64,000 nucleotides of DNA from Candidatus Woesearchaeota archaeon (GTDB lineage Archaea > Nanobdellota > Nanobdellia > Woesearchaeales > ARS49), in contig JACQNC010000008.1 of the NCBI GenBank assembly GCA_016203225.1, positions 231-64,230 of the forward strand, written 5' to 3'. A model generated the notes under the pieces. It saw only the letters and a list, made by a program, of their open reading frames with translations. It had not been told where the DNA came from and did no database searches. The position numbers and the translations under genes were made by a program. Shown here one piece after another: positions 38,117-62,792 of this stretch; positions within the stretch are counted from its first letter, which is position 1, and each line of letters starts with the position of its first letter.

Positions 38117-38181
38117 GTTGTGTCCCCCGAGCCCGATTGTTGCACGGGCTCAGCATAGAATGTATAGAGAGGCATTCAGGT

Positions 38182-38193
38182 CCTTTATAAAGG
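38182..38193. promoter_or_regulatory. Perfectly palindromic TATA element between divergent rps6e and surface-protein genes
   Basis: CCTTTATAAAGG. Confidence 0.5.
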
Positions 38194-38252
38194 TATCGTT
38201 GGATCACAAGAGCAAGCTTTTTAATGGCAAAGGCAACTATGTCCAGGAAAAG

Positions 38253-45316: not shown

Positions 45317-45324
45317 TTTAAATA
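45317..45324 (+). promoter_or_regulatory. TATA box for surface module A
   Basis: TTTAAATA upstream of 45363. Confidence 0.5.
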
Positions 45325-45362: not shown

Positions 45363-47543
45363 ATGCATCGTAAAGGCCAAATTACGCTATTCATCATAAT
45401 CGGGCTTCTCATCGTCCTCACAGTCGGCTCCATCATTTACCTGAACGCCCAGCGCGCGCGGCCCTTCGTGGGCTTGCCTCAGACTGAGGAGGTCGCGGAG
45501 GCTGTCCAGCCGTTGCAGAGCTACATCTCGGAATGTGTCGAGACAGTCTCGGCCGAGGGATTGAAGCTCCTCGGCGACCACGGGGGCTATCTCTCTCCGC
45601 AGTCCGTGCGTAACGCGAAGCTGAACGCCGTCGAGCCTACAGAGAGCGATCTTTTGATGTTCGCGCCAGACAGCCAGTACGGTGTCGCGTACTGGTGGTA
45701 TATGAGTAGCAAGAACACGTGCAGCGCGTGCGTGTTCGACAGCAAACGGCCCGCGTTGTACAAGAGTGAGGAGCGCCAGGGATTGCCGAGCATCGAGGGC
45801 CAGCTCGAGACATATGTCGAGAGTAACCTGCCCTCGTGCCTGAAGGATTTCGAGGGTTTCAAGGAGCAGGGTTTCACGGTCGTCGCGGACACCGACGTGG
45901 ACGCGCAGGCGTTTGTCACGGCGACCGGCGTCGTCGTCGGGTTGACGCAGGAGTTCACCGCGACACGCGGCGACGAGCGCCACGTGCTCCAACAGTTCGC
46001 GGTCACGCTCCCGGTGCGCGTGAAGGACATGTATGATCTCGCGACCAACATCACCTCGCTCGAGAGCGAGAACGCATTCCTGGCCAAACACGCCAAGGAA
46101 TTGATCGCGGCCACGGCACGCACCGACCCGAACGCATTGCCGCCGTTGAGCACGCTCGAGTTCGAACTCGGGCCAGGAGTCACATGGGTCAAGTTCTCGG
46201 TCGCGCAGCGTGTCCAGCAGTTGCTCACGAGCTACGTGCCCTTGCTGCAGGTGTTCGGAACGAACAACTACCGTCCTGTCGAGACGCCGGACAACGTCGA
46301 GAATCCCGACATCATAGGGAACGTGCTGAACAGGAACGCAGTCATCCCGCAACTGCGGCCGTGGCCAGGCATCGAGGCGCGGCTGACGTACCTCCCTACG
46401 TGGAAGCCTTACTTCGACCTCAACTGCAAGGGCCAGATATGCCAACCAGAGAGCTTCATGAACGATGTCATCTTCATATTCGGGTTCCAGCGCTACCAGT
46501 TCGCGTACGACCTGAGCTACCCTGTCCTGGTGGAGCTCCGCGAGCCGGCCGCGTTCTTCGGCGACGGCTACACGTTCCGGTTCGCGCTCGAGGGCAACCT
46601 GCGCAACAACGAGCCCGTGACCGCAGATTGGCGGCCTGCGGAGGCGGCACCGCCTGACGAGACGACGAGCATGCTCTGCAACCGCAACCAGTGGACGTCA
46701 GGCCAGGTCAACATCACGGTGCGCGAGTCGATAAACAAGCGGCCGCTCGATGCTGCCATCACGTACGATTGCGGCATCGAGGAATGCATCATAGGCAAGA
46801 CCGCGGGAGGATTGCTGGACACGCCGTTGCCGCGCTGCGCCGGCGGAGTCCTGAAGGCGGCCGTGACCGACCACGTGCCGGGAACGCTCGACCTGAACTC
46901 GAACACGGACGACGCTCAGCGTGCGGACTTCGAACTTCACCCCATCGTCAGCGTGAACGTCAGCATACTCAAGTACCGCCTGAAGAAGGACCTGATATCG
47001 CGCAACTGGATCCTCGACACCGAGCCGGTCCCGTTCGGCCAGCATGACCAGGCGTTCATCTCCATCGCGCGTAGCGAGGGCGAGGAGTTCAACGCGTACA
47101 CGAACATCTGCGGCAACAAGTTCACCAAAGGCACGGAGTTCAACAAGGACGTCCGCGTCACGGCAGGAAACTACACGGTCACCATCACATCGCTCTATCA
47201 CGGCGACATCATCATCCCGCCGGACAAGCGCTGCTACAAGACAGGCTCGTTCCCGAACAAGAAGAAGAAATGCTATGACATCCCCGAGACCGCGATAGAG
47301 TTCGGCAAGCCGACAGCCAATCCGTGCACGTCCGAAAAGCCGTTCCCGTCGGGTACGATACAGTTCCCTTGGGAGATCACGCCTTCGATGCTGCGCGACA
47401 TCAAGGGCATCACTTTCAAGACGATAGTCATGGCCGCCGAGATCCCCGGCACGCCGCTCGTCGTGGAGGACCTGGAACAGATAACCTCTGGACAGGGTTA
47501 TGTCGATGCCGACCCTTCGCTAGTCAAGCCGGTGATAACATGA
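45363..47543 (+). CDS. Large secreted protein with class III (pilin-type) signal peptide; paralog of 53676
   Basis: MHRKG/QITLFIIIGLLIVL; shared blocks with the 53676 protein. Confidence 0.75.
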   Translation: MHRKGQITLFIIIGLLIVLTVGSIIYLNAQRARPFVGLPQTEEVAEAVQPLQSYISECVETVSAEGLKLLGDHGGYLSPQSVRNAKLNAVEPTESDLLMFAPDSQYGVAYWWYMSSKNTCSACVFDSKRPALYKSEERQGLPSIEGQLETYVESNLPSCLKDFEGFKEQGFTVVADTDVDAQAFVTATGVVVGLTQEFTATRGDERHVLQQFAVTLPVRVKDMYDLATNITSLESENAFLAKHAKELIAATARTDPNALPPLSTLEFELGPGVTWVKFSVAQRVQQLLTSYVPLLQVFGTNNYRPVETPDNVENPDIIGNVLNRNAVIPQLRPWPGIEARLTYLPTWKPYFDLNCKGQICQPESFMNDVIFIFGFQRYQFAYDLSYPVLVELREPAAFFGDGYTFRFALEGNLRNNEPVTADWRPAEAAPPDETTSMLCNRNQWTSGQVNITVRESINKRPLDAAITYDCGIEECIIGKTAGGLLDTPLPRCAGGVLKAAVTDHVPGTLDLNSNTDDAQRADFELHPIVSVNVSILKYRLKKDLISRNWILDTEPVPFGQHDQAFISIARSEGEEFNAYTNICGNKFTKGTEFNKDVRVTAGNYTVTITSLYHGDIIIPPDKRCYKTGSFPNKKKKCYDIPETAIEFGKPTANPCTSEKPFPSGTIQFPWEITPSMLRDIKGITFKTIVMAAEIPGTPLVVEDLEQITSGQGYVDADPSLVKPVIT

Positions 47544-47566
47544 TTGCGTTCGTGCGTCTTCCCCGG

Positions 47567-47632
47567 CGTGATCTTCCCGGGCAGATTTGTGGCGTCGTTT
47601 CAATCGGTAACGCCACGACAAACCTGCCTGCG
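47567..47632. repeat. Dispersed palindromic repeat, copy 6
   Basis: CGTGATCTTCCCGGGCAGATTTGTGGCGT...ACGCCACGACAAACCTGCC. Confidence 0.8.
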
Positions 47633-47673
47633 TCCGCCAACCAGCAGGGGACTGCTTACTGTGGGTGTGCCGT

Positions 47674-50600
47674 ATGAAGCGCTTCCTCGCTGTGTTCATG
47701 GCGGTCCTCGTGCTCACGCTGCCTGTCGTGTTCGCGCAGACCTTGAGCATACAGCAGTTCTCTGGCCAGGATAACGTGCCCAACGTCGCGCGGCCGACCG
47801 ACACGCTCACCATCAAGGCATTGGTCAACATCCCCACCGATCCCGAGATCACTAACGACCAGGTGCGGTTGATAACGAGCGAAGGGGTCACGTATCTCTT
47901 CGAGTCGTGCGCGCCAGGCACCGGCACCGGGTTCTTCCTCTGCACGATGACGTACGATCTCATAGGCGAAGGCGGCAGCGACGAGTACTCGATCGGTTTG
48001 TACGATGACTCGGGTGTCGAGCTCAAGAGCGTCATCGAGACGCTCACGAACGACTTCATCAATCCCGCGGTCGTGACGCTCGTGGCCGATCCGATGACAC
48101 TAGGAGCCAGCCCGACGACTCTAACTTACGAGGCGCAGGACTACGCTTTCTCGCCCGGCGACACCGGTTCATGTGCCGGTGTGGGCAGCATAAAGCTCTA
48201 CGAGAACGGACTCACGGGGACTCCCACTGCGACGATCCCCGGAGGCGCCGCGTGCACGCTTTCAGGCCAGACGGACTACCTGCCGAAGGCGTCGGGCAAC
48301 GTGTCATTGTGCGCCATCGCGACCGACCGTCTCGGCAAGACGAGCCCATCGAAATGCACGACGCTGACTGTGGATCGCGGCGCGCCGCAGTTCACGCAGT
48401 CCAAGATTCTCACGAGCGACGGCACGCAGGTCTACGCGATACCCCCTCAAGGCATCACCGCGGACGTGTTCGTCACGATCAACGAGGGCTCGCTCGCCGT
48501 GAACAGCGTGCGCGCCGACCTCGGAAGCCTGGCTGACAATTCCGCGTTCAACGAACTCGCGCCGACAGAGCTCGGCGAATTGCATGGCTCGTCGCGCGTC
48601 GCGGTCTGGCGCAACATCCCGATAAAGAAGGTCTCGCCGTGCAGTTTCGCGGTGCGCGCCTCGGACGTGCTCGGCAACAGCGACAGCCACACGTTCACGT
48701 GCTCGATAGTCTCGGACACTTCACCGCCCGAGCCGCTCGGCATAACGACCGGCTACACGTCGGCCGATGGCACGGTGTTGCTCGGCTCGCAGGCCAACCT
48801 GTTCGTCCGCTTCCGGGAGGCGGGCATGGCTCGCGCCAACGCGTTCCTGGACGCGAGCAGCCTCGGGGCAGGCGCGAGCGTGAAGGCGGATTCGTGCGAA
48901 AAGGTCGGCGACGAATGGCATTGTTCGTGGAAGTTCGGGACATCTGCGCCCGAAAAACGATACACGATCACTCTCCTCGCCAGCACCAGGGACGATCTTG
49001 ACAATCCGCTGGCGAACACCGCGCAATACCAGATAGATTATGACAGCACGCCGCCAGTGATCGTCTCGGGCCCAGAGATCGATGTCGTGCACGCGACAGC
49101 AGAGTACGGCGACCAGGTCGTGAAAGGGGACCTCCTCCAGCTCTCGTATGTCGTGACTGGCGCATCCACCGTGGTCGCTGACTTCAGCGCGGTCGGCGGC
49201 GGCAACAAGACAGAGGGTGTCTGCGGCGACATCGACGGCCAGAATGTGTGCACGTTCCAGCAGGAGATCATCCTCAGCGGTTCGTACCATGCCAATGTCC
49301 CGATAAAGTTCCTCGACAATGCCGGCAACCTCGCTCAGACGGCGTACGAGTTCGACGTGTTCGGGGTGCTCTCCGAGCCAAACCCGAACTACTGGACTAG
49401 CGCTGTCGAGTGCGCGCCCGAGACGGTCGACAGGACGTCGACAGCGTTGGTGAGCCACCAGGTGTATTGCCGCATAAAGCTCAGCAGCCAGAACCCCTCC
49501 GCGAGCGTCGTGGCGACCGCGTTGAGCGTCGACGAATGCCAAGGCGAACTCGAGTCGAGCGTGGTCGATCTCACGCTCATCAACAACGGGTTCGGCAGCA
49601 AGGATCCGTATCTCAGGATGCTGCTCGCGACGCGCGAATTCCCCGAGGCCAAGCTCAACATCTCGTGTCCTGTGCTGATCCTGACGAAGCTCGGTCAGAA
49701 CTTCACGCAGAACGCCGAAAGAGAGATGGTGGATATGACCGTGCGGTTCGGCGAGAGCCCTCTGGGGACGTTGGCGGGGAACGTGGATGACAAGATCGAA
49801 AAGGCCGAGAAGGACGTCGATAGCCTCAACAAGTGGCTCAAGACTGCCGTCACGGTCCTCGCGTGGGGAGATAAGCTATGCCAGATCCGCATGATCATCT
49901 GGGATGTGGTGGGTGCGCTGACCGCCATCGTGGGCGTGCTTGGCGTGGCCGAGCTCATCCCTATATTCGGGAATGCCGTGACTCCGGGCAAGGAGGCGTT
50001 GTGCCAGTCGACCGACCAGCTCACGAAGGTGCTCGGCGATGACGTGGCGGGCATCGATAACGTCCTCAAGGATTTCTGTTCATTCCTCAACTGCAAGGGC
50101 GGCGACATAGTCGGTGGTGACATCCTTGGCGACATCGGCAGGTACGCCGGCGGCGGAAAGGGTGTTAACACGCCCGGCGAGGGTATCGAGACCGCGCCGC
50201 AGCAAGGCACAGGCATCTCGGGATTGGAGTCCATCAATGTGCAGGACAGTCTCGTCTGGAGCGCTTTGACGCTCTGCCTGCCGGGAGTGATAAAGAATGT
50301 CGACAAGTACCGTCAGATCCAGTGCAGGTACGCGGTCTGCCTGAAGCGGGACGTGAAGGAAGGCGGGATTCCCCTGTCTGTATGTGATGACGAGAAATCG
50401 TACCTGACTTGCGTGCTCATCTGGGCGCAGATCTTCGCGGCCATCCCGTTCATGAACATCATCAACTACTATCTCAACATAGTGCAGGAATGGTTCGCCA
50501 ACCCGGCCGCGGCGGTCGCGGCGCTGGTAGGATTGCTGTGCGGACAGAACTTCTGCACCACTACCGGGCCGGCATATACTGTCTGCGCGGCGTTCAAACT

Positions 50601-50706
50601 CGCGTCCCTCATCGGCAACGTGATCAACGACTACAACGCGATCAAGAAGCCCGGATTCTTCTCCGTCGGCCAAGGCCCATGTCAAGAATACGAGGAGTTG
50701 GACTGA
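47674..50706 (+). CDS. Secreted Ig-like repeat protein with C-terminal Cys-rich, helical and hydrophobic domain
   Basis: Signal peptide MKRFLAVFMAVLVLTLPVVFA; D-x-x-(P/A)P repeats; LCLPGV...YRQIQCRYAVC...VC...YLTC. Confidence 0.75.
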   Translation: MKRFLAVFMAVLVLTLPVVFAQTLSIQQFSGQDNVPNVARPTDTLTIKALVNIPTDPEITNDQVRLITSEGVTYLFESCAPGTGTGFFLCTMTYDLIGEGGSDEYSIGLYDDSGVELKSVIETLTNDFINPAVVTLVADPMTLGASPTTLTYEAQDYAFSPGDTGSCAGVGSIKLYENGLTGTPTATIPGGAACTLSGQTDYLPKASGNVSLCAIATDRLGKTSPSKCTTLTVDRGAPQFTQSKILTSDGTQVYAIPPQGITADVFVTINEGSLAVNSVRADLGSLADNSAFNELAPTELGELHGSSRVAVWRNIPIKKVSPCSFAVRASDVLGNSDSHTFTCSIVSDTSPPEPLGITTGYTSADGTVLLGSQANLFVRFREAGMARANAFLDASSLGAGASVKADSCEKVGDEWHCSWKFGTSAPEKRYTITLLASTRDDLDNPLANTAQYQIDYDSTPPVIVSGPEIDVVHATAEYGDQVVKGDLLQLSYVVTGASTVVADFSAVGGGNKTEGVCGDIDGQNVCTFQQEIILSGSYHANVPIKFLDNAGNLAQTAYEFDVFGVLSEPNPNYWTSAVECAPETVDRTSTALVSHQVYCRIKLSSQNPSASVVATALSVDECQGELESSVVDLTLINNGFGSKDPYLRMLLATREFPEAKLNISCPVLILTKLGQNFTQNAEREMVDMTVRFGESPLGTLAGNVDDKIEKAEKDVDSLNKWLKTAVTVLAWGDKLCQIRMIIWDVVGALTAIVGVLGVAELIPIFGNAVTPGKEALCQSTDQLTKVLGDDVAGIDNVLKDFCSFLNCKGGDIVGGDILGDIGRYAGGGKGVNTPGEGIETAPQQGTGISGLESINVQDSLVWSALTLCLPGVIKNVDKYRQIQCRYAVCLKRDVKEGGIPLSVCDDEKSYLTCVLIWAQIFAAIPFMNIINYYLNIVQEWFANPAAAVAALVGLLCGQNFCTTTGPAYTVCAAFKLASLIGNVINDYNAIKKPGFFSVGQGPCQEYEELD

Positions 50707-52719
50707 ATGAGACGCGCTCTCTCGATGGTCATGCTGGCGTTGCTGGTGCTCAGCAGCGTCCCTGTCATTGCGCAGGACTACGCTCCGGCCGGAACGCCGA
50801 CGCCCACGCCGACGGAAACCCCGAAGCAGGATACGACCTCAGTTTACTACGCGTATCAGCTTTCGGACAAGAAACAAGGCGTGTGGAAAGCGACGAAGGA
50901 CGAAAAACCAGCAGACGTTCTCACGAAAATCCAAACGCAGTATAAGGATCAGTCAGCGAGCATCCTGTACGGCAACCAGCCAATCTATCAGACTCTCGCT
51001 GATTTCAAGAAACAGTATCCGGGAGCAACGTTCACTACGGCTACTTTCCAAAACCAAGAAGTCAACGTAATAGAGTATGGCAGCATTCGGGTTAGTAGCT
51101 ACGCTGGCGCAGAAACCCAAATTAAGATCGGCGACACGTGGGTGAATTACCGGGGCCCACTCAGCAGCCTCGATGTCCAGACCGCTAAGGATGGGACAAC
51201 GACTCTCTTTTTCAATAAAGAACCAGTGCGCGTCGTCTTAGAGGCGGGTAAGACTTATTTAGTCGTCCTTGATGATGCAGGCAAAGATACTGACAAAATC
51301 TATGCGCCTATAAAGAATGGTGTTATTCGCCAGACTAAGGATCAATATCAGGTGTTGGATGCCGAAGGCAATGTGCTGGGAACGTTTGACATAAAAGAAT
51401 GGGAGCAGTTCCGTGGCAATGAAAACGATCTCGTCGCGGTTTCCGCGCAGTTGAGAAACACGGGGCTTTCGCTGAACGATGTGACCCCGTACAAACAGAC
51501 GGTCGATGGCGAGGAAACGACTGTCTTCATCTATGAAGCTGATTTCGGCGATGACGTGCGCGTCTATACCACCTCCGACGGCAAGCAGGTCCGCGAAGAA
51601 GGCGACTATACCGGAACCACGTGGACTTCCGAAGAGAAGAACGTCTACAACAAGGACGGCACGCTCTACGAAAGAACCGTGTACGAGAAAAATGGAAAGA
51701 CAATCGAATCGCAGTACACCTATGGTCAGGACACGCTTACGATACAGGTGCAGGATGACAAAGGAACCTTGTTGCAGCCTGAGACGTTCACTATCGCACG
51801 CGACAGCCAGGGCAAAGTCGTCGGTTACGAGATCGGGACGTATGATAGCAAGAAAAAAGTCTATTACGATCCTATCTCGGGCGATTACAAGTACGCGGAT
51901 GGCGCCGAAATCTCCGACGAGGACGAGAAGGCGGTCAAAGCAGACAAGAATGCCGAAAAGAAGGTAGACAAGATCGACGACGCCGAGGCCGCGCGCAGAG
52001 ACGCGGAACCCGGACGCTGGGAGCTCGCGTGGCGTCAGGGCGGTTTGTGGGGTTTGGTGAAGGAGTTCTTCGCGGGCTACGAGGCGTTCCGAGGGCTCGG
52101 AGCGTATGGTGCGTTGTTCTGGGACGAGGAGGAGTTGTACGAACGCAGGCTCGAGGTGAAGAAACAGTTCTGCAAGACGGTCGTCCTTGGCGGCGTCGAC
52201 TGCTGGACGAGCAAGCTCTGCGAGCGCTACACCGACCAGAATACGGGCAGCAACACTCTCGTCACGGTCGTTCCGGGCCAGGCTGTCCGAGCTGCGGCGC
52301 ACATCGAGGCCGAGCGCACTGAAACCACGGAATTCGCGAACGAGTCAGGCACGTTCGGATTGTATCTCTACCGCGTCACGTTCTTCGCATCGAGCCCGAG
52401 GGAGGACAACAGCGTCCAATTGAGATTCTATTATGACGGCGGCACGTATGACTGGTTCCCCGAGCCGCAGCAGATCGACGCAGGCGGCGTCGTGAGCGCG
52501 TCAGGCGCCGCAGCCATAGTCTCGTACGGTCGGCGTGACTACTCGCGCGTCTGCCTGATGCTCTCAGAGGGCATCGAAGTCGGCACTGGCTCGAGCGTTA
52601 GCGAGATCTGCGCGCCCATCGTGGACAGCGGGCTGTCGCCGTCTGGTGTCGAGAGCGTGCCGGGAGCGACTGAAGCGGAAACGCCGCCCGCGGCGGGCCA
52701 GCCAGGAGCCGGATTCTAG
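50707..52719 (+). CDS. Secreted protein with a low-GC, T/K/Y/D-rich central region
   Basis: Signal peptide; Cys-containing C-terminal domain (QFCK...DCWTSKLC); abuts both neighbours. Confidence 0.75.
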   Translation: MRRALSMVMLALLVLSSVPVIAQDYAPAGTPTPTPTETPKQDTTSVYYAYQLSDKKQGVWKATKDEKPADVLTKIQTQYKDQSASILYGNQPIYQTLADFKKQYPGATFTTATFQNQEVNVIEYGSIRVSSYAGAETQIKIGDTWVNYRGPLSSLDVQTAKDGTTTLFFNKEPVRVVLEAGKTYLVVLDDAGKDTDKIYAPIKNGVIRQTKDQYQVLDAEGNVLGTFDIKEWEQFRGNENDLVAVSAQLRNTGLSLNDVTPYKQTVDGEETTVFIYEADFGDDVRVYTTSDGKQVREEGDYTGTTWTSEEKNVYNKDGTLYERTVYEKNGKTIESQYTYGQDTLTIQVQDDKGTLLQPETFTIARDSQGKVVGYEIGTYDSKKKVYYDPISGDYKYADGAEISDEDEKAVKADKNAEKKVDKIDDAEAARRDAEPGRWELAWRQGGLWGLVKEFFAGYEAFRGLGAYGALFWDEEELYERRLEVKKQFCKTVVLGGVDCWTSKLCERYTDQNTGSNTLVTVVPGQAVRAAAHIEAERTETTEFANESGTFGLYLYRVTFFASSPREDNSVQLRFYYDGGTYDWFPEPQQIDAGGVVSASGAAAIVSYGRRDYSRVCLMLSEGIEVGTGSSVSEICAPIVDSGLSPSGVESVPGATEAETPPAAGQPGAGF

Positions 52720-53463: not shown

Positions 53464-53469
53464 CGTCTG

Positions 53470-53569
53470 CGTGATCTCCCCAAGCAGGTTGGTGGTCGCA
53501 TCACGGCTATCGATTCGATTCCGATGAAGCCAAGTCAAACTTGCGTGGGGTGCGCGGCTTGGGACGCGG
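53470..53569. repeat. Dispersed palindromic repeat, copy 7
   Basis: CGTGATCTCCCCAAGCAGGTTGGTGGTCGCATCACGGCTATCGATTCGATTCCGATG...CTTGGGACGCGG. Positions 53479-53526 match the reverse complement of copy 5 at 42/48. Confidence 0.9.
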
Positions 53570-53647
53570 TCACGGAATTTCTCCATTTTTCCATAAAGAA
53601 AAGAAAGAATGCGTTTCTATATTGTCCCTCCAAATCGCTCCTAAACA

Positions 53648-53655
53648 TTTATAAA
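53648..53655 (+). promoter_or_regulatory. TATA box for surface module B
   Basis: TTTATAAA about 20 nt before 53676. Confidence 0.55.
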
Positions 53656-53675
53656 GCATAATGAATGTCTCATGA

Positions 53676-55637: not shown

Positions 55638-58600
55638 CAAGATCCCAGCACGTACAAACCCAGGCACGATTGACGTCGCTCCAAGACTGCACTGCCCATG
55701 CAGGTTTGAGTAGTCGCTTACGATGTCCGAAATCGCACGACAAACCTGCCTGGGGAGCCAAGCTTTTACTCATCACGCTTGTAGCTGCACTTTTGCTCGT
55801 CACTACTGTCCATGCGCTCTCCATCAGCATCTCGGGGAATCCTGCGAAATCGATCAACACTACCGGTGTGAGGATCGAGTGGAACACGGACGTGGACGCC
55901 ACGACGCGCGTCGATTACGGAACGACCACACAGCTCGGCTCTGTCAAGGAAGACCTCGCGTTCACGAAGTTCCATCGCGTCCAGCTCGACGGACTGCTGC
56001 CCAACACGAAATACTATTTCCAGCTGGTCAGCATCGACCAGTCGGGCGAGTTCAAGATCGCGAACAACAACGGCAACTATTATTTCTTCACGACGAGCCC
56101 TGGTGCCGACGCCAACGCTCCCACGTTCATCGACGTGCGCGCGACGAGCTTCAGCGACACGAGCACGACGTTCAAGTGGAGCACGAACGAGCCCGCGTCG
56201 ACCATCGTGTCGTTCGGCGAGGGCACGCCGACGCAACAGACCGTCGACCAATCGCTCGTGGTCGAGCACGTCGCCACCATCCCTACGCAGGCAGGCAAGC
56301 TCTACGCGTTTGTCGTGGGCGGCTGCGACCAGTTCGAGAACTGCGGCAACGCCTCGGGGATAGAGTTCCTGGCAGGCACGCAGCAAGGCGCGCCGCCGTT
56401 GACCGCCGACGTGCCCGCGAAGGTGCGCCAGAACAAGATCGACATCAAGGGCACGACGCGACCGTTCGCGAAGATCGAGGTCAGCGTCAACAACCTCCTT
56501 CAGAAGACTGATTACGCGGAAGGCAACGGCGCGTTCGAGATCAAGAATCTCATCCTCACGCAGCCCGTGAACAACACGCTCAAGATCGTCGTCACTGACG
56601 CGGCCGGCCAGACGGTCGAGCAGACTTATCCTATAACGATCGACAACACGCCTCCGAACGTGAAAATCCGCGGCATCCCCGCGATCGCGAGCACGACGCC
56701 AATCACCATCTCGGGAAGCACGAACGAGCACGTAACGATAACGCACGAGGTAAAACAGGCGTTCGACACCAACGCGCCGAGCCGCGTCGCGGGTCTCAAG
56801 GGCGAGAAAGTCACGTCCGGCACCGTCGAGCTCGTGTGGACGGAGAACGATGAGGCGGACATCCACGAATACGCGGTCTACCGCAACAGCATCCGCGTCG
56901 CCACGACGCAGCAACCCACCTACACGGACACCGTCGGAGGCGGCACGACCTACCAGTACCGCATCTCGGCGGTCGACACGAGTTGCAACGAAGGGGCACA
57001 GAGTGAGCCGGCGTTCGTGCAGACACCCGCCGGCGAGAAGCGTGGCGAGCCGACCGGTGTCGAGCTCACGTGCAAGCCGCAGAAGCAGACGCTCGAGGCA
57101 TCCGGGGACTTCTCGTTCGCGGTCGACCTGCTCGACGGCAACAACCAGATCCGCATAACCGCGAAGGACGACGCCGGCAACATGGTCGTGTTCCAGAACT
57201 CGACGCGCCTTGACAACCAGGCGCCGCAGTTCCTCGAGGACAACCTCAACAGGCTCTCTCCGACGTACATCCCAGAGGTCACGGTCAAGGGTAAGGTCAG
57301 CGAGAAATCGACGGTGTTCGTGTACGTCAACGACGACTCGAAACCGCAGGCGTTCGAAGTGACCGGTGACGACGGCAGCTTCTCGATAAAGGTCAAGCTC
57401 TCGCGCAGTGCGACGGTGAGCGGCAACGCATCGAAGACGCCCACCGGCGCGGTCGTTGTCGAGACAGGCATCGGCGGCTTCAAGAACAAAATCCGCATCG
57501 AGGCCGTCGACCTCGCGGGACTGAAGACGAGCAAAGGCCCTGTAGACGTGCTGTACACTCTCTGCGGTGAGGGCAGCTGGTTCAAGGTCGACATCGGTGA
57601 AATCTCGCCGTCTGTCGTAACGCCGCGCCTAGTCATCGAGGGCGTGCAGCAGCTCGGGCTCCCGCTCAACATCTCGTACCGCGGCGCGCACAAGGCGGTC
57701 ATCCAGCGCGTCACGGTCAGCCATCTCCTGTTGAGCCCCGAGGAACAGGACAAGTATGACGCTGACTGGGTGCAGCTCAACCCGATGTTCTCGCGCAAGA
57801 ACTGGGGCGCGGGCTACCTGCAGATAGCGTTCAACGCGCAACCTCCTGCCGAGGGCCAGACGACCGCCGACAAGGAAGACGAGATAGCCGAACACCGCAA
57901 GGGCGAGGAGTGCAAGACTCCGGGAGTCGGATGCGCGAGGTTCCTGTTGCAGGTCGAGATCCAGGCGCAGGAGGAGATCCCCAAGCGCTTCTCCGACATC
58001 CGCACCGACACGACCACGGGCAACGTGACCATCGAGCCGATAAGGCAGAAGGTCTGCGTGCCGGTTGAGGTCATGATGGACGTTCCCATCCACCTGAGTG
58101 AGAAGATCCCCAAGAAACTGCTCGAGAGCGCAAGCGCATTCCTGACGTCCACCATCGACGTAATCGATGCCATCCTGAAACCGTTGACCACCATCGGGAC
58201 GTACACGCTATACACTTGTTTCGCCATGACCGCGTGGAACTTCGTCCAGTTCCTTCAGGAGGACATCGCGTGTGGTGGGTCGGTCGTGACGGGATTGCTA
58301 TCCGGTGGTTCGTCGACGTTCGATGTCCGCGTGGCAGAGATCGGTTCGTGCGACAAGGTCTATCCTAAGGACCAGGACTCGTCGAAGAACGACGCGTGCA
58401 ACAAGTGCCAGAAAGCCATCGACAGCCGCGTGAGCTTCGAGGGCACGCTCAGGAAAGTGTGCGACCGAGTCGCCTGTCCGAGCGCGCCGACGTTGCAGAC
58501 GTACATCAACGAGAAACCTTCGCCCGAATTCGTCGCAGGACTGCCCGACAACACCAAGCTCTACAAAGGCAACAGTTGCGGGTTCAAGGGAACCGAAGTC

Positions 58601-61600
58601 ACTGGGTCGGCAGGCGGCGTCAACACGACCGCGACCAAGCTCGGCGGCGATTACACCACGATCAAGCAGACCTACTTCGACTTCTTGACCCACAAGGACG
58701 ATGCGAACAAGAAGAAACAGACAGGCACTCCTCAAGGCACGGCAGCTACGGTGAACTGCGCAGGACTGCATCCCGCTAATTCCCAATGTTGCGGCTTCGA
58801 ATACTATGACGAGTGGGGATCCGCGTGCGGCATCCCTGGCCTTGTTGAGACGTTCGACGAGATCGAGCAGAGCGCGTGCCTCGCAGCTCAAGGCGCCAAC
58901 TCAATCCCTACGTTCGAGAAGGAGGCCAGCACCAAGAAGAAAGGCGCGCCTGTCAAGTGCAATTCTCTGTTCAACTCGTTGGCCGGCTTCTGCGAGAAGG
59001 ACGGCGCGCCTGTCGGCGACACGATCGCGACAGGTATCCATTATGGCGCAGGGGTGGTGCCTCAGAGCAGTTACAGCAACGAGATGTATGTGCGCATAGA
59101 CCCGATACCTGCGAACGATCCGAAACAATACCGCATCACGCGCGGATACGTGCGGCGCACGCTCGTCGAGCGCAAGGCGACCATTGATCAAAAGGACAAG
59201 AACACGGAAGGCCGTTACCTGAACGAGAACCTCGAGTTCACGCAGGATAGCGGTCCCAATTCTGACCTGACAGCCATATTCTCTGATCCGAAGAAAACGC
59301 GTGAGGCTGGTGTTCGCGAGCTTGACGCCGCGCTATGCTCGTGGAATGTCGCGGATGCGCCGACGTGCCACAGCAATGTCGGCGGCCGTTATGACTCGAT
59401 CAAGGGCAAGATAGGCATCACGGACAAGGCGTATATCGTCCGTCCTGACCAGGAAGGCATCCTGCGCAGCGTGCAGTGCGTCTGCCTGCCTGCCGTGACT
59501 TCGTATTTGAGCTTCTGGCGCACGGTGTTGTCGAACGTCAAGACTTGCGTCGACCACATCAGGCTCACGGGTGAAGGGAGTTCGGGCGTGTGCCAGGCCG
59601 TGCTGAGCACGTACGTCTGCGACTTGCTCTACGATCTCCTGCGCTGCTTTGTCCAGAAGTTCGGCGATTCAGGCGAAGGCACGCGCATCGGCTCGAAGGG
59701 TATCGGTGACGTGCTCGGCAGCCTGACGCGCGCAGGCGGCAGGATGCAGCAGAGCGTACAAGGCAGGTATGGCCAGACCGCGTTGTGGAAGACCATGTTC
59801 AACGATCGCAAGATCGTGCATAGCATCTGCGCGTTCGCGTTCACCGGCACGTGGGACCTTAATGTCCAGGGCATCTTCGAGCAGACCGTGCAGGACATCC
59901 CGATCCAGAGCCAAGGCGTGGTCTATCCCGCGGACAGGAGGTATGTCGCGTACAACCCGTTGAGCACGCCGAAGGGACTCGTGACTTGGGTGTACCATTT
60001 CGGCGTCGGCCTCGTGGCCGGCGCGGACCTGCAGTACACGCTCTCGTTGAAGTGCTCGAACAGCCTCCGATGCGAGGAACGTGACGGTTTCAAGGACGGC
60101 AAGTGTGACTGCCTCGGCAGATCGGAGATCGTCACCCCGATCAATCCAGCAGAGCTCGGGACGGGCGATCTGTCAAAGAACGACGTGTTGAACACGGAGA
60201 TCTTCTTCCCAGTCCAGGCAGGCGAACCCGGCTCGGAGATCAGGTACGACACGGCGATACTGGAGTGGGAGTACAAGGACAACAACGGCCAGCTCCAGAA
60301 GGGCAAGGCGGAACAGAAGATCCATCTCACGGGCGGGGACGCGCCGAACTTCTGCAAGCTGCAACTGCTTGACCGGCAATTGTTCCTGTGCCAGTTCGGC
60401 GTCGGCGACTACGCAGGCGTCTCGTTCACCAAGGATCCTGCGCTGAAGAACCCGCCCATACTGCTCGGCAAGCCCATCGATTTCACGCTCGGGCTGAACC
60501 TGTTCGGCAGCTCCGACCCGCGCGCGCAGGGCGGCGCCACGACCGGCATAAACACGAAGTTCCTCATCTACGAATTGAGGAACGGGCTCGGCACGATAAT
60601 CAAGACTAACCGCGATCCGCAAGGCACCAGCGCGCCCATCCCCATCGAGACCGAAGGCGAACACGAGAAGACGGTCACGATAACTCCGGTGACTGACAAG
60701 GACTTCGGTGTCACCAGCCAGCAACAGACGTTGATTGATCGCGTGTCGTTGGAGGACAAGGATCTGAAATCAAACGATCCTCGTCTGTACGCGAAAACAT
60801 TCCTTAATCCCACAACAACGCAGTTTGTCGTGAGGCCGGTTCCGGGCGGGAAGATCGATCTTCTCTTTGTCTTTGTCGGAGGAAACAAGGTCGAAGTGTA
60901 CAAAACCACAAACCAACCGGTTCAGAACGCTCCTCAGAAAGACGCTCAAAATGCCCTGACCGGGGAGTGGGGATACCGCAAAAAAATCGATGGAGATGAC
61001 AACACTGCGAACGGCGTGACCCCATTGAAGACGGTCGATCTGGTAAACAACGTGCTTACGTACACCGACGATAAGGGCGCGTTCATGAGCAATGCCCAAT
61101 TCAAACTCGCATTCACTAAGTTACCTGCGCAGAACGGAGAGATGCGCCTCGACTACACAGAACCCTCGGGCGAAGGAACGCCATGCTCGCACTTCTTGAC
61201 CGCGCCGGACACGTGGAAAGCCACGTTCACGCTGTATGACAGCAAGAAGCCGCAGTACGGCGGCTTCTACGAGCCGAACTTCGACCAGGTCGCGACCGAC
61301 AGCTCTGGAGTCCGGCAGGAACGCACTGTCAGCGTCCAGGCCGTGTGCAACACACAGTATGCGGGACCCGTGAACGTTACGACGGGCGCTCCGGGACTTG
61401 CGCAATTGCGGTTCTGTGATCCGAATCCTGCGCTCAGCCAGCCGAACGCGTGCTATTGCGGCACGTACGCGAACGCGCTAAGAGACCTGCAGCTCGGAAT
61501 CATGAAACACAATTGCGGACCCGCGAACGAGGTGAACCCGGGGAAGAACTATTGCACATATTCGCTAAACAATTTCGAAACGCCGGACGAGTTCGAAGCG

Positions 61601-61999
61601 GCGAATGATCGGGTGTGCTCTTCTGAGAGCCAGAATGTCCCATACGTGAAATCAACAGAGTTCGTAAGGATGATCGATAATGCGTTCACCGCTGACGTCC
61701 TTTCCGTGCCTTACGGCGGGACGATCACGTTGCGCGCGAACCAGACGTACGGCTGGAGGGCAAAACTGGTTTCGTCGACCGCGGTGCGCGTGAAGTCCGG
61801 ATTGCAAGGCGTCCTTTCCCTGGATGAGCAAACTATCGATGCAGGAGAGAAAGATGTCACGTTTGTCGGGCCTGGTGCTTCTGTTCTTACGATATCATTC
61901 CCGGACACGCAACCGCGCAATTACGGTATTTGGGTCGCAGAAGCAAGCGCTCTATCACGAGGTAGCGCATATCCGTTCACAATCAACGTCGTACCCTAA
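55634..61999 (+). CDS. Giant (2121 aa) secreted protein: Fn3/Ig-like repeats plus Cys-rich region
   Basis: Hydrophobic signal KLLLITLVAALLLVTTVHA; W-x-T-x-x...H-x-V-x-L-x-GL-x-PNTKYYF Fn3-like units; many Cys; VCLPAV...WRTV...TCV...VC...YVC. Exact start uncertain. Confidence 0.8.
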   Translation: MTRSQHVQTQARLTSLQDCTAHAGLSSRLRCPKSHDKPAWGAKLLLITLVAALLLVTTVHALSISISGNPAKSINTTGVRIEWNTDVDATTRVDYGTTTQLGSVKEDLAFTKFHRVQLDGLLPNTKYYFQLVSIDQSGEFKIANNNGNYYFFTTSPGADANAPTFIDVRATSFSDTSTTFKWSTNEPASTIVSFGEGTPTQQTVDQSLVVEHVATIPTQAGKLYAFVVGGCDQFENCGNASGIEFLAGTQQGAPPLTADVPAKVRQNKIDIKGTTRPFAKIEVSVNNLLQKTDYAEGNGAFEIKNLILTQPVNNTLKIVVTDAAGQTVEQTYPITIDNTPPNVKIRGIPAIASTTPITISGSTNEHVTITHEVKQAFDTNAPSRVAGLKGEKVTSGTVELVWTENDEADIHEYAVYRNSIRVATTQQPTYTDTVGGGTTYQYRISAVDTSCNEGAQSEPAFVQTPAGEKRGEPTGVELTCKPQKQTLEASGDFSFAVDLLDGNNQIRITAKDDAGNMVVFQNSTRLDNQAPQFLEDNLNRLSPTYIPEVTVKGKVSEKSTVFVYVNDDSKPQAFEVTGDDGSFSIKVKLSRSATVSGNASKTPTGAVVVETGIGGFKNKIRIEAVDLAGLKTSKGPVDVLYTLCGEGSWFKVDIGEISPSVVTPRLVIEGVQQLGLPLNISYRGAHKAVIQRVTVSHLLLSPEEQDKYDADWVQLNPMFSRKNWGAGYLQIAFNAQPPAEGQTTADKEDEIAEHRKGEECKTPGVGCARFLLQVEIQAQEEIPKRFSDIRTDTTTGNVTIEPIRQKVCVPVEVMMDVPIHLSEKIPKKLLESASAFLTSTIDVIDAILKPLTTIGTYTLYTCFAMTAWNFVQFLQEDIACGGSVVTGLLSGGSSTFDVRVAEIGSCDKVYPKDQDSSKNDACNKCQKAIDSRVSFEGTLRKVCDRVACPSAPTLQTYINEKPSPEFVAGLPDNTKLYKGNSCGFKGTEVTGSAGGVNTTATKLGGDYTTIKQTYFDFLTHKDDANKKKQTGTPQGTAATVNCAGLHPANSQCCGFEYYDEWGSACGIPGLVETFDEIEQSACLAAQGANSIPTFEKEASTKKKGAPVKCNSLFNSLAGFCEKDGAPVGDTIATGIHYGAGVVPQSSYSNEMYVRIDPIPANDPKQYRITRGYVRRTLVERKATIDQKDKNTEGRYLNENLEFTQDSGPNSDLTAIFSDPKKTREAGVRELDAALCSWNVADAPTCHSNVGGRYDSIKGKIGITDKAYIVRPDQEGILRSVQCVCLPAVTSYLSFWRTVLSNVKTCVDHIRLTGEGSSGVCQAVLSTYVCDLLYDLLRCFVQKFGDSGEGTRIGSKGIGDVLGSLTRAGGRMQQSVQGRYGQTALWKTMFNDRKIVHSICAFAFTGTWDLNVQGIFEQTVQDIPIQSQGVVYPADRRYVAYNPLSTPKGLVTWVYHFGVGLVAGADLQYTLSLKCSNSLRCEERDGFKDGKCDCLGRSEIVTPINPAELGTGDLSKNDVLNTEIFFPVQAGEPGSEIRYDTAILEWEYKDNNGQLQKGKAEQKIHLTGGDAPNFCKLQLLDRQLFLCQFGVGDYAGVSFTKDPALKNPPILLGKPIDFTLGLNLFGSSDPRAQGGATTGINTKFLIYELRNGLGTIIKTNRDPQGTSAPIPIETEGEHEKTVTITPVTDKDFGVTSQQQTLIDRVSLEDKDLKSNDPRLYAKTFLNPTTTQFVVRPVPGGKIDLLFVFVGGNKVEVYKTTNQPVQNAPQKDAQNALTGEWGYRKKIDGDDNTANGVTPLKTVDLVNNVLTYTDDKGAFMSNAQFKLAFTKLPAQNGEMRLDYTEPSGEGTPCSHFLTAPDTWKATFTLYDSKKPQYGGFYEPNFDQVATDSSGVRQERTVSVQAVCNTQYAGPVNVTTGAPGLAQLRFCDPNPALSQPNACYCGTYANALRDLQLGIMKHNCGPANEVNPGKNYCTYSLNNFETPDEFEAANDRVCSSESQNVPYVKSTEFVRMIDNAFTADVLSVPYGGTITLRANQTYGWRAKLVSSTAVRVKSGLQGVLSLDEQTIDAGEKDVTFVGPGASVLTISFPDTQPRNYGIWVAEASALSRGSAYPFTINVVP

Positions 62000-62000
62000 C

Positions 62001-62792
62001 ATGAAGCAGGCTTTCTTCCGGACGCTTGAAACGATCAAGATGCACTGGTACCTCATCCTTCTCATCGTCGCTCTCGACATCGCGTTCTTGTACGCGTTCG
62101 GCAAGGTATATGCATCCATTTTCCAAACGACTGCGGCGCATCTCGACACGATTAATCAACTCCTGCAGGGCAGCATCGGGCAGTTCACGACGACAAGCGA
62201 TCCAGGCGCACTGAACATCGGGATCGAGCAGTTCAATCAGGAGGTCGCGTTCGTGAAGTTGGGGATCGCGTACATCCTCGGGTATCTCCTACTGTTCTGG
62301 CTGGCGTTCCAAGGCCCGGCGTGGTACATCATCCACAGAATTACGGGCAAACCACGTCTACCGCGGTTCGCGTTGCGCTTTGTGCTCACAACAATAATAG
62401 GATTCGCGGCGTTCGTAGGCATCCTCATCGGAATCGTCGCGTTGTCGTTCAAGACGTTCTCGTCACCGCTGCCATTGATAGGACAGGGCGGGATCAACAC
62501 GCTGGCGGCCATCGCGGTGCTTGCGCTGGCGTATCTCGTGTTCGTCGCGTACGCGTTGCCGGACAATGTTCAGTTCTGGAGGTCGTTCGTCAGGACCGCG
62601 TTCAGGAGGATAACGACGACAGGGCTCGCCTATGTCCTAGTATTGATAGTGCTCGCAGTGCTTTATGCGATAATGATATGGGTGCTTAAACAGAACGTCT
62701 TGGCGGGCTTCGCGTTCGGCGCGATAATCCTGTTGCCTATCTTCGCAGCGCTCCGCGTGTTCTTCGTTGAAAGTATAAAAGAAAAGGATTAA
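62001..62792 (+). CDS. Polytopic membrane protein (about 6 TM); probable paralog of 52720
   Basis: ATG one base after the upstream stop; hydrophobicity pattern. Confidence 0.7.
   Translation: MKQAFFRTLETIKMHWYLILLIVALDIAFLYAFGKVYASIFQTTAAHLDTINQLLQGSIGQFTTTSDPGALNIGIEQFNQEVAFVKLGIAYILGYLLLFWLAFQGPAWYIIHRITGKPRLPRFALRFVLTTIIGFAAFVGILIGIVALSFKTFSSPLPLIGQGGINTLAAIAVLALAYLVFVAYALPDNVQFWRSFVRTAFRRITTTGLAYVLVLIVLAVLYAIMIWVLKQNVLAGFAFGAIILLPIFAALRVFFVESIKEKD

What the first reader, a model, noticed from the sequence alone, without database searches (positions are those of the whole stretch)
45363..62792. Tandemly duplicated large surface-apparatus module (4 genes versus 3 genes, one apparently fused)
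Seen: module A = 45363 (pilin-type signal), 47674 (Ig plus Cys-rich), 50707 (secreted), 52720 (polytopic TM). Module B = 53676 (pilin-type signal), 55634 (giant Ig plus Cys-rich), 62001 (polytopic TM). Each module has its own TATA and genes abut or overlap. The first genes are clear paralogs (YISECVETVSAEGLKLLGDHGGYL vs FVASCASTIAEEGIRLQGAQGGYL; FAYDLSYPVLVELREP vs FTYDVIYPVMLTIRDP). The 2121-aa protein looks like 47674 and the C-terminal part of 50707 joined (weaker evidence). Palindromic repeats lie at 47567 and at the A/B boundary (53470). Inference: an uncharacterised DPANN envelope machine, for example for host attachment, cell-cell bridging or DNA/nutrient transfer.
Basis: partly seen in the sequence, partly recalled or inferred. 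Interest (0 to 1): 0.72.

Follow-up and report, generated by a model that had tools for sequence, protein, structure and literature searches.

The report
Duplicated surface-protein operon in Woesearchaeota
Two ancient sister gene sets sit side by side in many genomes of tiny DPANN archaea (Woesearchaeota); each encodes a pilin-like anchored protein, a giant cysteine-rich secreted protein and a membrane protein that match no known family, so they are good but untested candidates for a core cell-surface structure.

Summary
The observation largely holds. The seven ORFs are real and form two transcription units, A1-A4 and B1-B3, each behind its own TATA box. Three gene pairs are paralogous. Gene 1 (A1~B1) gives blastp E 3e-34. 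The 6-TM membrane protein (A4~B3) gives HMM-HMM E 1e-21 against 0.02 for a reversed control. The giant secreted protein (A2~B2) shares Ig-like N-terminal domains and a ~70-aa Cys motif (E 1e-4 against 0.1 for the control).

The proposed fusion of A3 into the 2121-aa protein is not supported: its score is at control level.

The order A1-A2-A3-A4-B1-B2-B3 recurs across Woesearchaeota/Nanoarchaeia MAGs. 457+ stretches in species-representative genomes encode an A1/B1 relative. In 111 fetched loci, A1 is followed by A2 73 times and B1 by B2 45 times. The duplication is therefore ancient and both copies are retained.

Gene 1 carries a conserved class-III (prepilin-like) signal motif, [KR][GA]Q[ILV]T.FIIIG. 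The conserved cores match no Pfam, NCBIfam, PHROG or PDB family. No pilus ATPase or platform gene lies nearby, and no viral contig carries the genes.

Best reading: a lineage-wide, two-paralogue membrane-anchored envelope complex. Its specific role (adhesion, lattice, host bridge) remains inferred.

The parts
45317..45324 (+). TATA-box-like octamer TTTAAATA, putative promoter of module A (39 nt upstream of the A1 ATG)
   Evidence: one of only two + strand TTTAWAWA sites within the cluster; 22 in the window versus 0.57 expected
45363..47543 (+). A1, 726 aa. It has a class-III (prepilin-like) signal/anchor (MHRKG|QITLFIIIG), a variable linker, an orphan alpha/beta domain (~46-420), three beta-sandwich domains (~448-700) and a C-terminal helix.
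   Evidence: AF2 mean pLDDT is 88. Foldseek matches only the beta-sandwich (CnaB/transthyretin-like) domains. No Pfam, NCBIfam or PDB sequence family.
47578..47633 (+). Copy of a genome-specific dispersed palindromic element (arms GGCAGATTTG / CAAACCTGCC) in the 130-nt A1/A2 spacer
   Evidence: (MFE -23.1 kcal/mol, z -2.2); absent from all 116 related loci
47674..50706 (+). A2, 1010 aa (alternative GTG start at 47665). It has a Sec signal peptide, Ig-like domains, and a Cys-rich C-terminal domain (~700-1010) carrying the motif S..C.CLPG[IV]...L.K.RQI shared with B2.
   Evidence: follows A1 in 73 loci
50707..52719 (+). A3, 670 aa. It has a Sec signal peptide, a variable low-complexity N-terminal half and a conserved C-terminal ~240-aa domain with 5 Cys. 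It is found only in module A.
   Evidence: It is the least conserved gene (28-38% identity to close relatives). No similarity to B2.
52720..53463 (+). A4, 247 aa, membrane protein with about six TM segments; paralogue of B3; orphan family
53478..53550 (+). Degenerate copy of the same palindromic element, just after the A4 stop
   Evidence: both arms match the motif with 3 mismatches
53648..53655 (+). TATA-box-like octamer TTTATAAA, putative promoter of module B (about 21 nt upstream of the B1 ATG)
53676..55637 (+). B1, 653 aa, paralogue of A1 with the same class-III-like N-terminus (RANRG|QITVFIILG); the most conserved gene of the cluster
   Evidence: 55-65% identity to close relatives
55692..55757 (+). 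Third copy of the palindromic element, at the B1/B2 junction inside the 5' end of the long B2 ORF. It shares an identical 17-mer, CACGACAAACCTGCCTG, with the A1/A2 copy.
   Evidence: I3; MFE -27.7 kcal/mol, z -2.7
55634..61999 (+). B2, up to 2121 aa (start uncertain: ATG 55634 or TTG 55706). It has a Sec signal peptide (…LLLITLVAALLLVTTVHA|LS), an fn3/Ig-like array (~60-760), a strongly conserved Cys-rich core (~790-1700) and a variable beta-rich tail.
   Evidence: (499 representative clusters)
62001..62792 (+). B3, 263 aa, membrane protein with about six TM segments; paralogue of A4
   Evidence: follows B2 in 16 loci

Best explanation
The region is a pair of ancient paralogous operons conserved across Woesearchaeota (GTDB Nanoarchaeia). 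Each probably builds a membrane-anchored, multi-protein cell-envelope complex.

Proposed roles within a module:
- Gene 1 (A1/B1) is inserted by its class-III-type N-terminal hydrophobic helix. It is probably trimmed by a prepilin peptidase encoded elsewhere. It presents an orphan alpha/beta domain and a stalk of three beta-sandwich domains.
- Gene 2 (A2/B2) is exported by Sec. It has no membrane anchor of its own in B2. It is held at the surface through its conserved Cys-rich core, presumably disulfide- or metal-stabilised, and displays a lineage-variable array of Ig/fn3 domains outward.
- The 6-TM protein (A4/B3) is the membrane partner, acting as an assembly or docking platform.
- Module A has an extra secreted subunit, A3.

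Shown: the paralogy, the conserved order, the export and anchor signals, the two promoters, and the absence of known catalytic or motor domains.

Inferred: that the products form one complex, the role of each subunit, and that the complex is structural or adhesive.
For: Paralogy:
- A1~B1: E 3.5e-34.
- A4~B3: hhalign probability 99.5%, E 1.5e-21 over 235 columns, against E 0.016-0.03 for the reversed control. Pure-family HMMs cross-hit down to 8e-12.
- A2~B2: Ig-like N-terminal region, E 4e-5. A Cys motif gives E 1e-4 against 0.1 for the control. The A2 HMM hits this same spot in 34 B2-family proteins, with i-E down to 2e-7.

The trio acts as a unit. A third paralogous trio (gene 2, gene 4, gene 1) lies upstream in 6-7 relatives.

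Conserved order. A1 is followed by A2 73 times and B1 by B2 45 times. A1-A2-A3-A4-B1-B2 occurs in 23 loci and B1-B2-B3 in 16 loci, out of 111. The full seven-gene string is in L084. Genes mostly overlap or abut, and the cluster has only two TATA boxes.

Breadth. 457+ stretches in species-representative genomes encode an A1/B1 relative. The B2 core has 499 representative clusters at 50% identity. Flanking genes are housekeeping genes that differ between lineages. No viral contig carries the genes.

Export and anchoring. The class-III-like motif is conserved. The A1 model has mean pLDDT 88, with an N-terminal helix, a low-confidence variable linker, a globular domain and beta-sandwich domains of the kind found in SlaB and Gram-positive pilins.

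Shape of B2 conservation. The B2 core keeps about 80 invariant columns, including more than 20 Cys. Total protein length varies from about 1400 to 3000 aa, and the only recognisable domains are Ig/fn3.
Against: - No direct evidence that the proteins interact, are expressed together or are surface-exposed. TM and signal predictions here are simple hydropathy and motif scans.
- No structural model for A2, A3 or A4/B3. The B2 core model is unreliable (pLDDT 51).
- The very strong conservation of the B2 core is unusual for a purely structural or adhesive surface protein. It could indicate an enzymatic or mechanical function not captured here.
- Low N-glycosylation sequon density: 0.4-0.6 per 100 aa, against 4.7 in the neighbouring subtilase U2.
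- No prepilin peptidase, ATPase or platform gene could be checked outside the 64-kb window.
Confidence: 0.45

Rival explanations
1. Pseudopilus or pilus-tip complex that depends on type-IV-pilus machinery. A1/B1 would be giant minor-pilin-like subunits, processed by PibD/FlaK and assembled by a pilus or archaellum-type ATPase and platform encoded elsewhere. They would present or secrete the giant partner A2/B2. This is analogous, from my own knowledge, to the large type IVb minor pilins CofB/TcpB with their secreted partners.
For: The class-III signal motif is conserved in both paralogues. The Pfam TadE/G-like N-terminus gives a weak hit to B1 (E 0.085). Woesearchaeota express archaellins, so the phylum has class-III processing (PMC11606122). 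Archaeal class-III proteins need not be encoded next to their machinery (PMC4858521: PibD has a broad substrate range that includes substrate-binding proteins).
Against: No ATPase, TadC/PilC-like platform or peptidase lies in the cluster or in its flanks in the window, L001, L003 or L084. A4/B3 is not a Peptidase_A24 or a TadC family member and lacks a GxGD motif. In the A1 model the N-terminal helix is followed by a poorly conserved, low-confidence linker rather than a continuous pilin alpha-1 helix packed on a sheet. No PDB pilin matches the alpha/beta domain.
Confidence: 0.15
2. Two-component S-layer or canopy. Gene 2 would form the outer lattice and gene 1 the membrane-anchored stalk, as SlaA/SlaB do in Sulfolobales. 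The two paralogous sets would give a mixed or alternative lattice.
For: A large secreted Ig-rich protein is encoded next to a smaller membrane-anchored protein with three beta-sandwich domains. Foldseek matches A1 to SlaB (8qox_B, E 3e-5). The cluster is present across the order next to housekeeping genes.
Against: The SlaB match covers only generic beta-sandwiches (TM-score 0.11-0.17). The anchor is N-terminal, not a C-terminal TM after a coiled coil. Sequon density is low. Woesearchaeota MAGs already have other genes annotated and highly expressed as S-layer proteins (PMC11606122). The strong motif conservation in the B2 core is atypical for S-layer proteins. A 6-TM partner has no equivalent in SlaAB.
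Confidence: 0.15
3. Host-contact machine: a cell-cell bridge, pore or fusion device, or a transfer conduit used by the symbiont to reach its host. The conserved Cys-rich core would be the mechanically active part, and the variable Ig/fn3 array would recognise the host.
For: The cluster is restricted to a DPANN lineage thought to depend on hosts. The outer array is variable and the core is highly conserved. The families are orphans, so no mundane function has been assigned.
Against: No similarity to any known fusogen, pore-former, secretion or conjugation component. No energy-coupling protein is present. No data link the genes to contact sites. The same features fit a general envelope protein.
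Confidence: 0.15
4. Not a functional unit: independent secreted and membrane proteins that merely stay adjacent.
For: No interaction data. A3 is poorly conserved. Insertions are tolerated inside the cluster, for example the Bro-N gene in L001 and the palindromic elements here.
Against: The trio was duplicated as a set at least twice. The order is kept across genomes that share only ~30% identity. Start and stop codons overlap in most relatives. Each module has one TATA box.
Confidence: 0.05

Closest known systems
Archaeal class-III-signal (type IV pilin-like) surface proteins, e.g. pilins, archaellins and the PibD-processed substrate-binding proteins of Sulfolobus/Haloferax (PMC4858521; Szabo et al. 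2007, cited from memory)
   Same: An N-terminal [KR][GA]|Q motif followed by about 20 hydrophobic residues at the extreme N-terminus. It is conserved in both paralogues.
   Different: A1/B1 are 650-850 aa, with an orphan alpha/beta domain and three beta-sandwiches. A variable linker follows the helix. No ATPase, platform or peptidase genes are nearby. No Pfam pilin or class-III family hit.
SlaA/SlaB two-component S-layer of Sulfolobus acidocaldarius (PDB 8qox)
   Same: Adjacent genes for a very large secreted protein and a smaller membrane-anchored protein built of beta-sandwich domains. Foldseek E 3e-5 to SlaB.
   Different: Only a generic beta-sandwich resemblance. The anchor is at the opposite end. 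There is an additional 6-TM subunit, a Cys-rich conserved core and low sequon density.
Large type IVb minor pilins with secreted partners (CofB-CofJ, TcpB-TcpF); recalled from memory, not tested
   Same: A pilin-type N-terminus followed by beta-rich domains, encoded next to a secreted protein that it could present.
   Different: Those are bacterial, much smaller, and embedded in a full pilus operon. No structural match appeared among the top Foldseek hits.
Gram-positive sortase pilins and the B. anthracis TIE protein (CnaB/transthyretin-like domains; 6fwv, 3kpt, 5f44)
   Same: The best Foldseek matches to the three C-terminal domains of A1 (E 9e-8 to 1e-3).
   Different: Fold-level similarity of common beta-sandwich modules only (TM-scores 0.1-0.26). 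This is an archaeal protein with an N-terminal anchor.

Membership tests
Archaeal type IV pilus / pilin-like system | Class III signal peptide: a short charged N-region, [KR][GA] at -2/-1, then a hydrophobic stretch of about 20 aa | tested here: met
   strict motif in 93 of 129 and FlaFind-like motif in 110 of 129 A1/B1 relatives; Q+1 invariant in the 39-sequence alignment
Archaeal type IV pilus / pilin-like system | Cleavage by a prepilin peptidase (PibD/FlaK/EppA) | not testable with these tools
   Needs N-terminal sequencing or mass spectrometry, or an in vitro cleavage assay. No peptidase gene was found among the ORFs scanned against Pfam; the scan did not cover every ORF in the window.
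Archaeal type IV pilus / pilin-like system | Assembly ATPase (VirB11/PilB/ArlI family) and polytopic platform (TadC/PilC/ArlJ) in the locus | tested here: not met
   No such Pfam domain in the seven proteins, in the window's other ORFs that were scanned, or in the called genes of L001-L004 and L084. A4/B3 match no platform family.
Archaeal type IV pilus / pilin-like system | Pilin fold: the N-terminal alpha-1 helix packed against a beta-sheet or Ig-like head | tested here: inconclusive
   AF2 model: helix 3-32, low-confidence variable linker 33-45, then an alpha/beta domain. No pilin in the PDB matched that domain.
SlaA/SlaB-type two-component S-layer | Stalk protein with beta-sandwich domains, a coiled coil and a C-terminal TM anchor | tested here: not met
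   A1 has beta-sandwiches (Foldseek E 3e-5 to 8qox_B), but its only strongly hydrophobic segment is N-terminal.
SlaA/SlaB-type two-component S-layer | Forms the abundant paracrystalline outer lattice | not testable with these tools
   Needs cryo-ET and envelope proteomics. Indirect evidence: low sequon density, and other genes are annotated as S-layer in Woesearchaeota transcriptomes.
Prepilin peptidase (Peptidase_A24), considered for A4/B3 | Two catalytic Asp residues, the second in a GxGD motif; Pfam PF01478 | tested here: not met
   Only one semi-conserved acidic residue (in TM1) and no GxGD. No Pfam hit in 36 members.
Phage/virus or mobile-element module | Presence on viral contigs, or matches to viral protein families | tested here: not met
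   No relatives in the IMG/VR scans. PHROGs gave no meaningful hit. Flanks are housekeeping genes.

The most novel reading that the evidence does not exclude
The two modules encode a previously unrecognised kind of DPANN envelope machine. A pilin-signal-anchored stalk and a 6-TM platform would hold a giant protein whose invariant Cys-rich core is the working part of a host-contact device (bridge, pore or fusion). The variable Ig/fn3 array would set host specificity. This would give the first candidate genes for host attachment in Woesearchaeota.
Probability: 0.15. Interest if true: 0.85.

Novelty: new variant of a known kind. Interest (0 to 1): 0.6.

Why it matters
Woesearchaeota are among the most widespread DPANN archaea, are uncultured, and are presumed to depend on other cells. 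The genes that build their surface or mediate contact are unknown.

This cluster covers about 17 kb, roughly 2% of a genome if the 969-kb contig of a relative is near-complete (an assumption). It is retained across the order, was duplicated as a set before the sampled lineages diverged, and consists entirely of exported or membrane proteins from orphan families.

That makes it a concrete, testable target set. It could be followed by metaproteomics, by cryo-ET with subtomogram averaging, and by AF-multimer. The B2 core and the A1/B1 N-terminus are conserved enough to serve as lineage markers or antibody targets. If the complex is involved in host contact, it opens a long-standing question in DPANN biology. 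If it is a structural envelope layer, it defines a new archaeal cell-wall component.

Tried and rejected
- **Fusion of A3 into B2.** The A3 full-length and C-terminal-domain profiles were compared with the B2 core and the B2 tail. The best result was E 0.05-0.13 over 23 columns, equal to reversed-alignment controls. Rejected at sequence level.
- **Known families.** Pfam, NCBIfam, PHROGs and PDB sequence profiles for all seven proteins and for the A1, B2-core and A4/B3 alignments gave only generic fn3/Ig hits.
- **Fold searches.** The A1 model against PDB and BFVD matched only repeated beta-sandwiches.
- **Word-index protein searches with B2.** These were swamped by fn3 words or returned only 3 hits. 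The exhaustive representative search was needed instead.
- **A4/B3 as a prepilin peptidase or archaeosortase-like enzyme.** No GxGD motif and no conserved Cys (B3 has none). Rejected.
- **Domain fusions in the longest B2 homologues as functional hints.** Only Ig/fn3 domains were found.
- **Virus or mobile-element origin.** No viral contigs.
- **Rfam and tRNA scans of the window.** Nothing found.
- **Literature.** Searches for this cluster found nothing on it.
Full report
**What is there.** The window has ~59% G+C and carries archaeal housekeeping genes: ThrRS, S19e, Cbf5/TruB, an exosome-proteasome operon and NOG1. Between 45363 and 62792, seven + strand ORFs fill the region:
- A1, 45363-47543, 726 aa
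- A2, 47674-50706, 1010 aa
- A3, 50707-52719, 670 aa
- A4, 52720-53463, 247 aa
- B1, 53676-55637, 653 aa
- B2, 55634-61999, up to 2121 aa
- B3, 62001-62792, 263 aa

A2/A3 and A3/A4 abut. B1/B2 overlap by ATGA. B2/B3 are 1 nt apart. A1/A2 are 130 nt apart and A4/B1 212 nt apart. TATA-like octamers are strongly over-represented in the window (22 against 0.57 expected). The only two on the + strand within the cluster lie 39 nt upstream of A1 and about 21 nt upstream of B1.

**Protein features.** A1 and B1 begin with MHRKG|QITLFIIIG and ...RANRG|QITVFIILG. Across relatives the motif [KR][GA]Q[ILV]T.FIIIG is strongly conserved: strict form in 93 of 129, FlaFind-like form in 110 of 129, and Q+1 invariant. 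This is the archaeal class-III (prepilin-type) signal pattern.

A2, A3 and B2 have Sec-type N-termini. A4 and B3 each have about six hydrophobic segments.

A2 has 29 Cys and B2 has 48. B2 has fn3/Ig-like Pfam hits only in its first ~520 residues. Nothing else matches Pfam, NCBIfam or PHROGs.

**Are the modules paralogous?**
- A1~B1: blastp E 3.5e-34, 24% identity over ~600 aa.
- A4~B3: undetectable by BLAST. Family profiles were built separately by genomic position (A4 = gene before B1; B3 = gene after B2). They align end to end with hhalign probability 99.5%, E 1.5e-21. A reversed-alignment control gives E 0.016-0.03. The pure HMMs cross-hit members of the other family down to 8e-12.
- A2~B2: the Ig-like N-terminal parts align weakly (E 4e-5). 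A ~60-70-residue Cys motif also aligns: A2 855-913 has consensus KdSLV.S...ClPGIIyNLdK.RQI.C, and B2 1270-1338 has sGllrSvqCvClPai.sYL..Wr.Il.....C. It gives E 1e-4 against 0.1 for the reversed control. The A2 HMM hits this same position in 34 B2-family proteins, with i-E down to 2e-7. A co-linear but non-significant similarity lies further upstream (E 0.08). The A2 C-terminal domain therefore looks like a compact version of the B2 core.
- A3: its conserved part is the C-terminal ~240 aa. It shows no similarity to any part of B2. The best result is E 0.05-0.13 over 23 columns, at control level. The proposed A2+A3 fusion is therefore unsupported for A3.

**Conservation elsewhere.** A1 has more than 100 homologues, all from Woesearchaeota, Nanoarchaeota or Nanoarchaeia MAGs where a sensible name is given. 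A scan of one genome per GTDB species found at least 457 stretches encoding an A1/B1 relative.

In 111 non-redundant fetched loci, ORFs were labelled by sequence alone. An A1-type gene is followed by an A2-type gene 73 times, and a B1-type gene by a B2-type gene 45 times. The string A1-A2-A3-A4-B1-B2 is seen in 23 loci and B1-B2-B3 in 16. Most remaining loci are cut by contig ends or by the 10-kb flank limit. L084 shows the whole seven-gene string: 727-990-678-250-645-2142-269 aa. So does a 969-kb contig, as far as the flank reaches.

Identities to the window fall from ~50-65% in the closest relatives to ~23-38% in distant ones. B1 is the most conserved gene and A3 the least. The A/B duplication therefore predates the divergence of the sampled Woesearchaeota, and both copies are maintained.

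Six or seven lineages carry a third trio directly upstream: an A2-like gene, an A4-like gene and an A1-like gene of ~850 aa. This suggests that the unit that duplicates is gene 1 + gene 2 + the 6-TM gene. A3 is an add-on to module A.

Flanking genes differ between lineages and are housekeeping genes. No viral contig carries A1 or the B2 core.

**The B2 core.** An exhaustive HMMER search with B2 residues 790-1989 found 499 representative clusters at E up to 1e-3. Nearly all of the 150 listed are 1400-3000 aa. Residues ~790-1700 are strikingly conserved. Motifs include CDRVxCPSAPTLQxY, GLHPAxPECCGxEYxxEWGSACG, TGDGSxGxCQAxLSxYxCDLLYD, KLVHSxCxFAFTGTW, GLTTWxYHFGxGLxAGADL and LKCSxGxxC...DGFxxGxCDC. 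About 80 columns are invariant in a 9-sequence alignment at 36-59% identity.

Total protein length varies from about 1400 to 3000 aa, with much of the variation N-terminal to the core, and the longest homologues add only more Ig/fn3 domains. The core matches no PDB sequence or Pfam family. The AF2 model was built with only the 9 sequences I was allowed to use. It is unreliable (pLDDT 51) and its fold-search hits are not meaningful.

**Structure of A1.** The AF2 model from a 39-sequence alignment has mean pLDDT 88. It shows:
- an N-terminal helix, residues 3-32
- a low-confidence, poorly conserved linker, 33-45
- an alpha/beta domain, ~46-420, which is the part conserved between A1 and B1
- three beta-sandwich domains, ~448-700
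- a short C-terminal helix

Foldseek against PDB and BFVD matches only the beta-sandwiches: the B. anthracis TIE protein, SlaB of the Sulfolobus S-layer, Gram-positive CnaB pilins, and phage tail and baseplate proteins. TM-scores are low throughout. No PDB hit better than about E 1e-2 can be assigned to the alpha/beta domain.

**What it most likely is.** The evidence is: export and anchor signals on every product; duplication of a trio as a set; tight and ancient synteny; one promoter per module; no ATPase, motor or recognisable catalytic domain; and a variable distal array on a conserved core.

The best-supported reading is a membrane-anchored multi-protein envelope complex present in two paralogous versions. 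Gene 1 would be the N-terminally anchored, probably prepilin-peptidase-processed stalk. Gene 2 would be the Sec-exported giant subunit, docked through its Cys-rich core. The 6-TM protein would be the membrane partner. I give this 0.45.

More specific variants cannot be separated with these data:
- A pseudopilus or tip complex dependent on type-IV-pilus machinery, 0.15. Against it: no machinery genes in the locus or flanks, a linker after the helix, and no pilin fold match.
- An S-layer-like lattice, 0.15. Against it: the anchor is at the wrong end, sequon density is low, and other genes are annotated and expressed as S-layer in Woesearchaeota.
- A host-contact, bridge or pore machine, 0.15. 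There is no positive evidence beyond lineage restriction and the unusual core conservation.
- No functional unit at all, 0.05.

**Comparison with the known.** The only defining feature of a known system that is met is the class-III signal motif. The locus lacks the ATPase and platform that define archaeal type IV pilus loci. A4/B3 is not a prepilin peptidase. The resemblance to SlaA/SlaB is architectural and fold-generic. I therefore do not file the cluster as a member of any named system.

I rate it a new variant of the broad kind 'archaeal surface assemblies built on class-III-signal proteins', made of orphan protein families. Full-text literature searches found no description of it.

**Side observation: a palindromic element.** The core 10-mer occurs 4 times against 0.12 expected. 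The 17-mer with up to 3 mismatches occurs 6 times against 0.10 expected.

Three copies sit at gene junctions of this cluster: A1/A2, A4/B1 and B1/B2. Two sit in the exosome/Rpo6 operon on the other strand. Three of the four copies folded form stable hairpins (z -2.2 to -2.7). None occurs in the 116 related loci.

In relatives, genes 1 and 2 overlap by ATGA. Here the element separates A1 from A2, and it lies within the 5' end of the long B2 ORF. This is why the B2 start is ambiguous.

Noticed in passing
window 47578-47633 (+), 53478-53550, 55692-55757 (+), 25029-25090 (-), 27690-27750 (-): A genome-specific dispersed palindromic element of about 55-75 nt, with arms GGCAGATTTG / CAAACCTGCC. The 17-mer occurs 6 times against 0.10 expected. 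It always lies at gene junctions inside operons, and 3 of 4 copies tested fold as stable hairpins. It is absent from all 116 related loci. It may be REP/MITE-like or an RNA processing or attenuation site.
   Followed up: partly
window 55634-55800: The B2 start codon is ambiguous. ATG 55634 overlaps the B1 stop, as in relatives, but gives a 43-aa N-region containing the palindromic element. TTG 55706 gives a normal signal peptide. The public gene call (P0106, 2068 aa, start 55793) truncates the hydrophobic core of the signal peptide and is probably wrong. Several orthologues also have long, dissimilar N-terminal extensions.
   Followed up: partly
L016, L022, L024, L026, L027, L074 (and L077), upstream of module A: A third paralogous trio in a different order: an A2-like gene of ~1070 aa, an A4-like gene of ~254 aa and an A1-like gene of ~850 aa. 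It is present in some Woesearchaeota but not in this window.
   Followed up: partly
L001 15601-16446 versus L002: Two otherwise near-identical contigs differ by a Bro-N-domain gene and changed neighbouring ORFs inserted between A2 and A3. A mobile insertion is tolerated inside module A.
   Followed up: no
window 38007-41030 and 41887-45291: Two large surface proteins lie directly upstream. One is an Ig-repeat protein (U1; real start probably near 38220, after the TATA at 38184). The other is a 1134-aa S8 subtilase with cadherin-like domains, a Cys-rich C-terminal region, a C-terminal TM segment and 53 N-glycosylation sequons (4.7 per 100 aa). They are conserved next to the cluster only in the closest relatives (L003, L005, L007).
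   Followed up: partly
window 15272-22881: A BatA/VWA - VWA - DUF7502 - MoxR (AAA_3) - DUF58/VWA gene set, an archaeal MoxR-VWA 'aerotolerance-like' operon. It includes the recent Pfam families DUF7406, DUF7407 and DUF7408.
   Followed up: no
window 24694-29211 (-): The archaeal exosome-proteasome superoperon: proteasome alpha, SBDS, Rrp4, Rrp41, Rrp42 and an Rpo6/RpoK-like gene, identified from their translations. Two copies of the palindromic element sit between its genes.
   Followed up: no
L005, L006, L007, L011 and others (record titles): Contigs carrying this Woesearchaeota-specific cluster are deposited under names such as 'Candidatus Binatia bacterium' and 'uncultured Methanosarcinales archaeon'. 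These are probably taxonomic mislabels of the MAGs.
   Followed up: no
whole window versus loci L001-L116: The window's G+C (58.9%) is at the top of the range for loci carrying the cluster (31-60%, median 43%). Only the closest relatives (L005, L084, L085) are similarly G+C-rich.
   Followed up: partly
window 958-3495 (-), 3539-6358 (+), 7275-8444 (+), 30240-32057 (-): Four further large ORFs (389-939 aa) have no Pfam match at E up to 1e-3. They are not paralogues of the cluster families.
   Followed up: no
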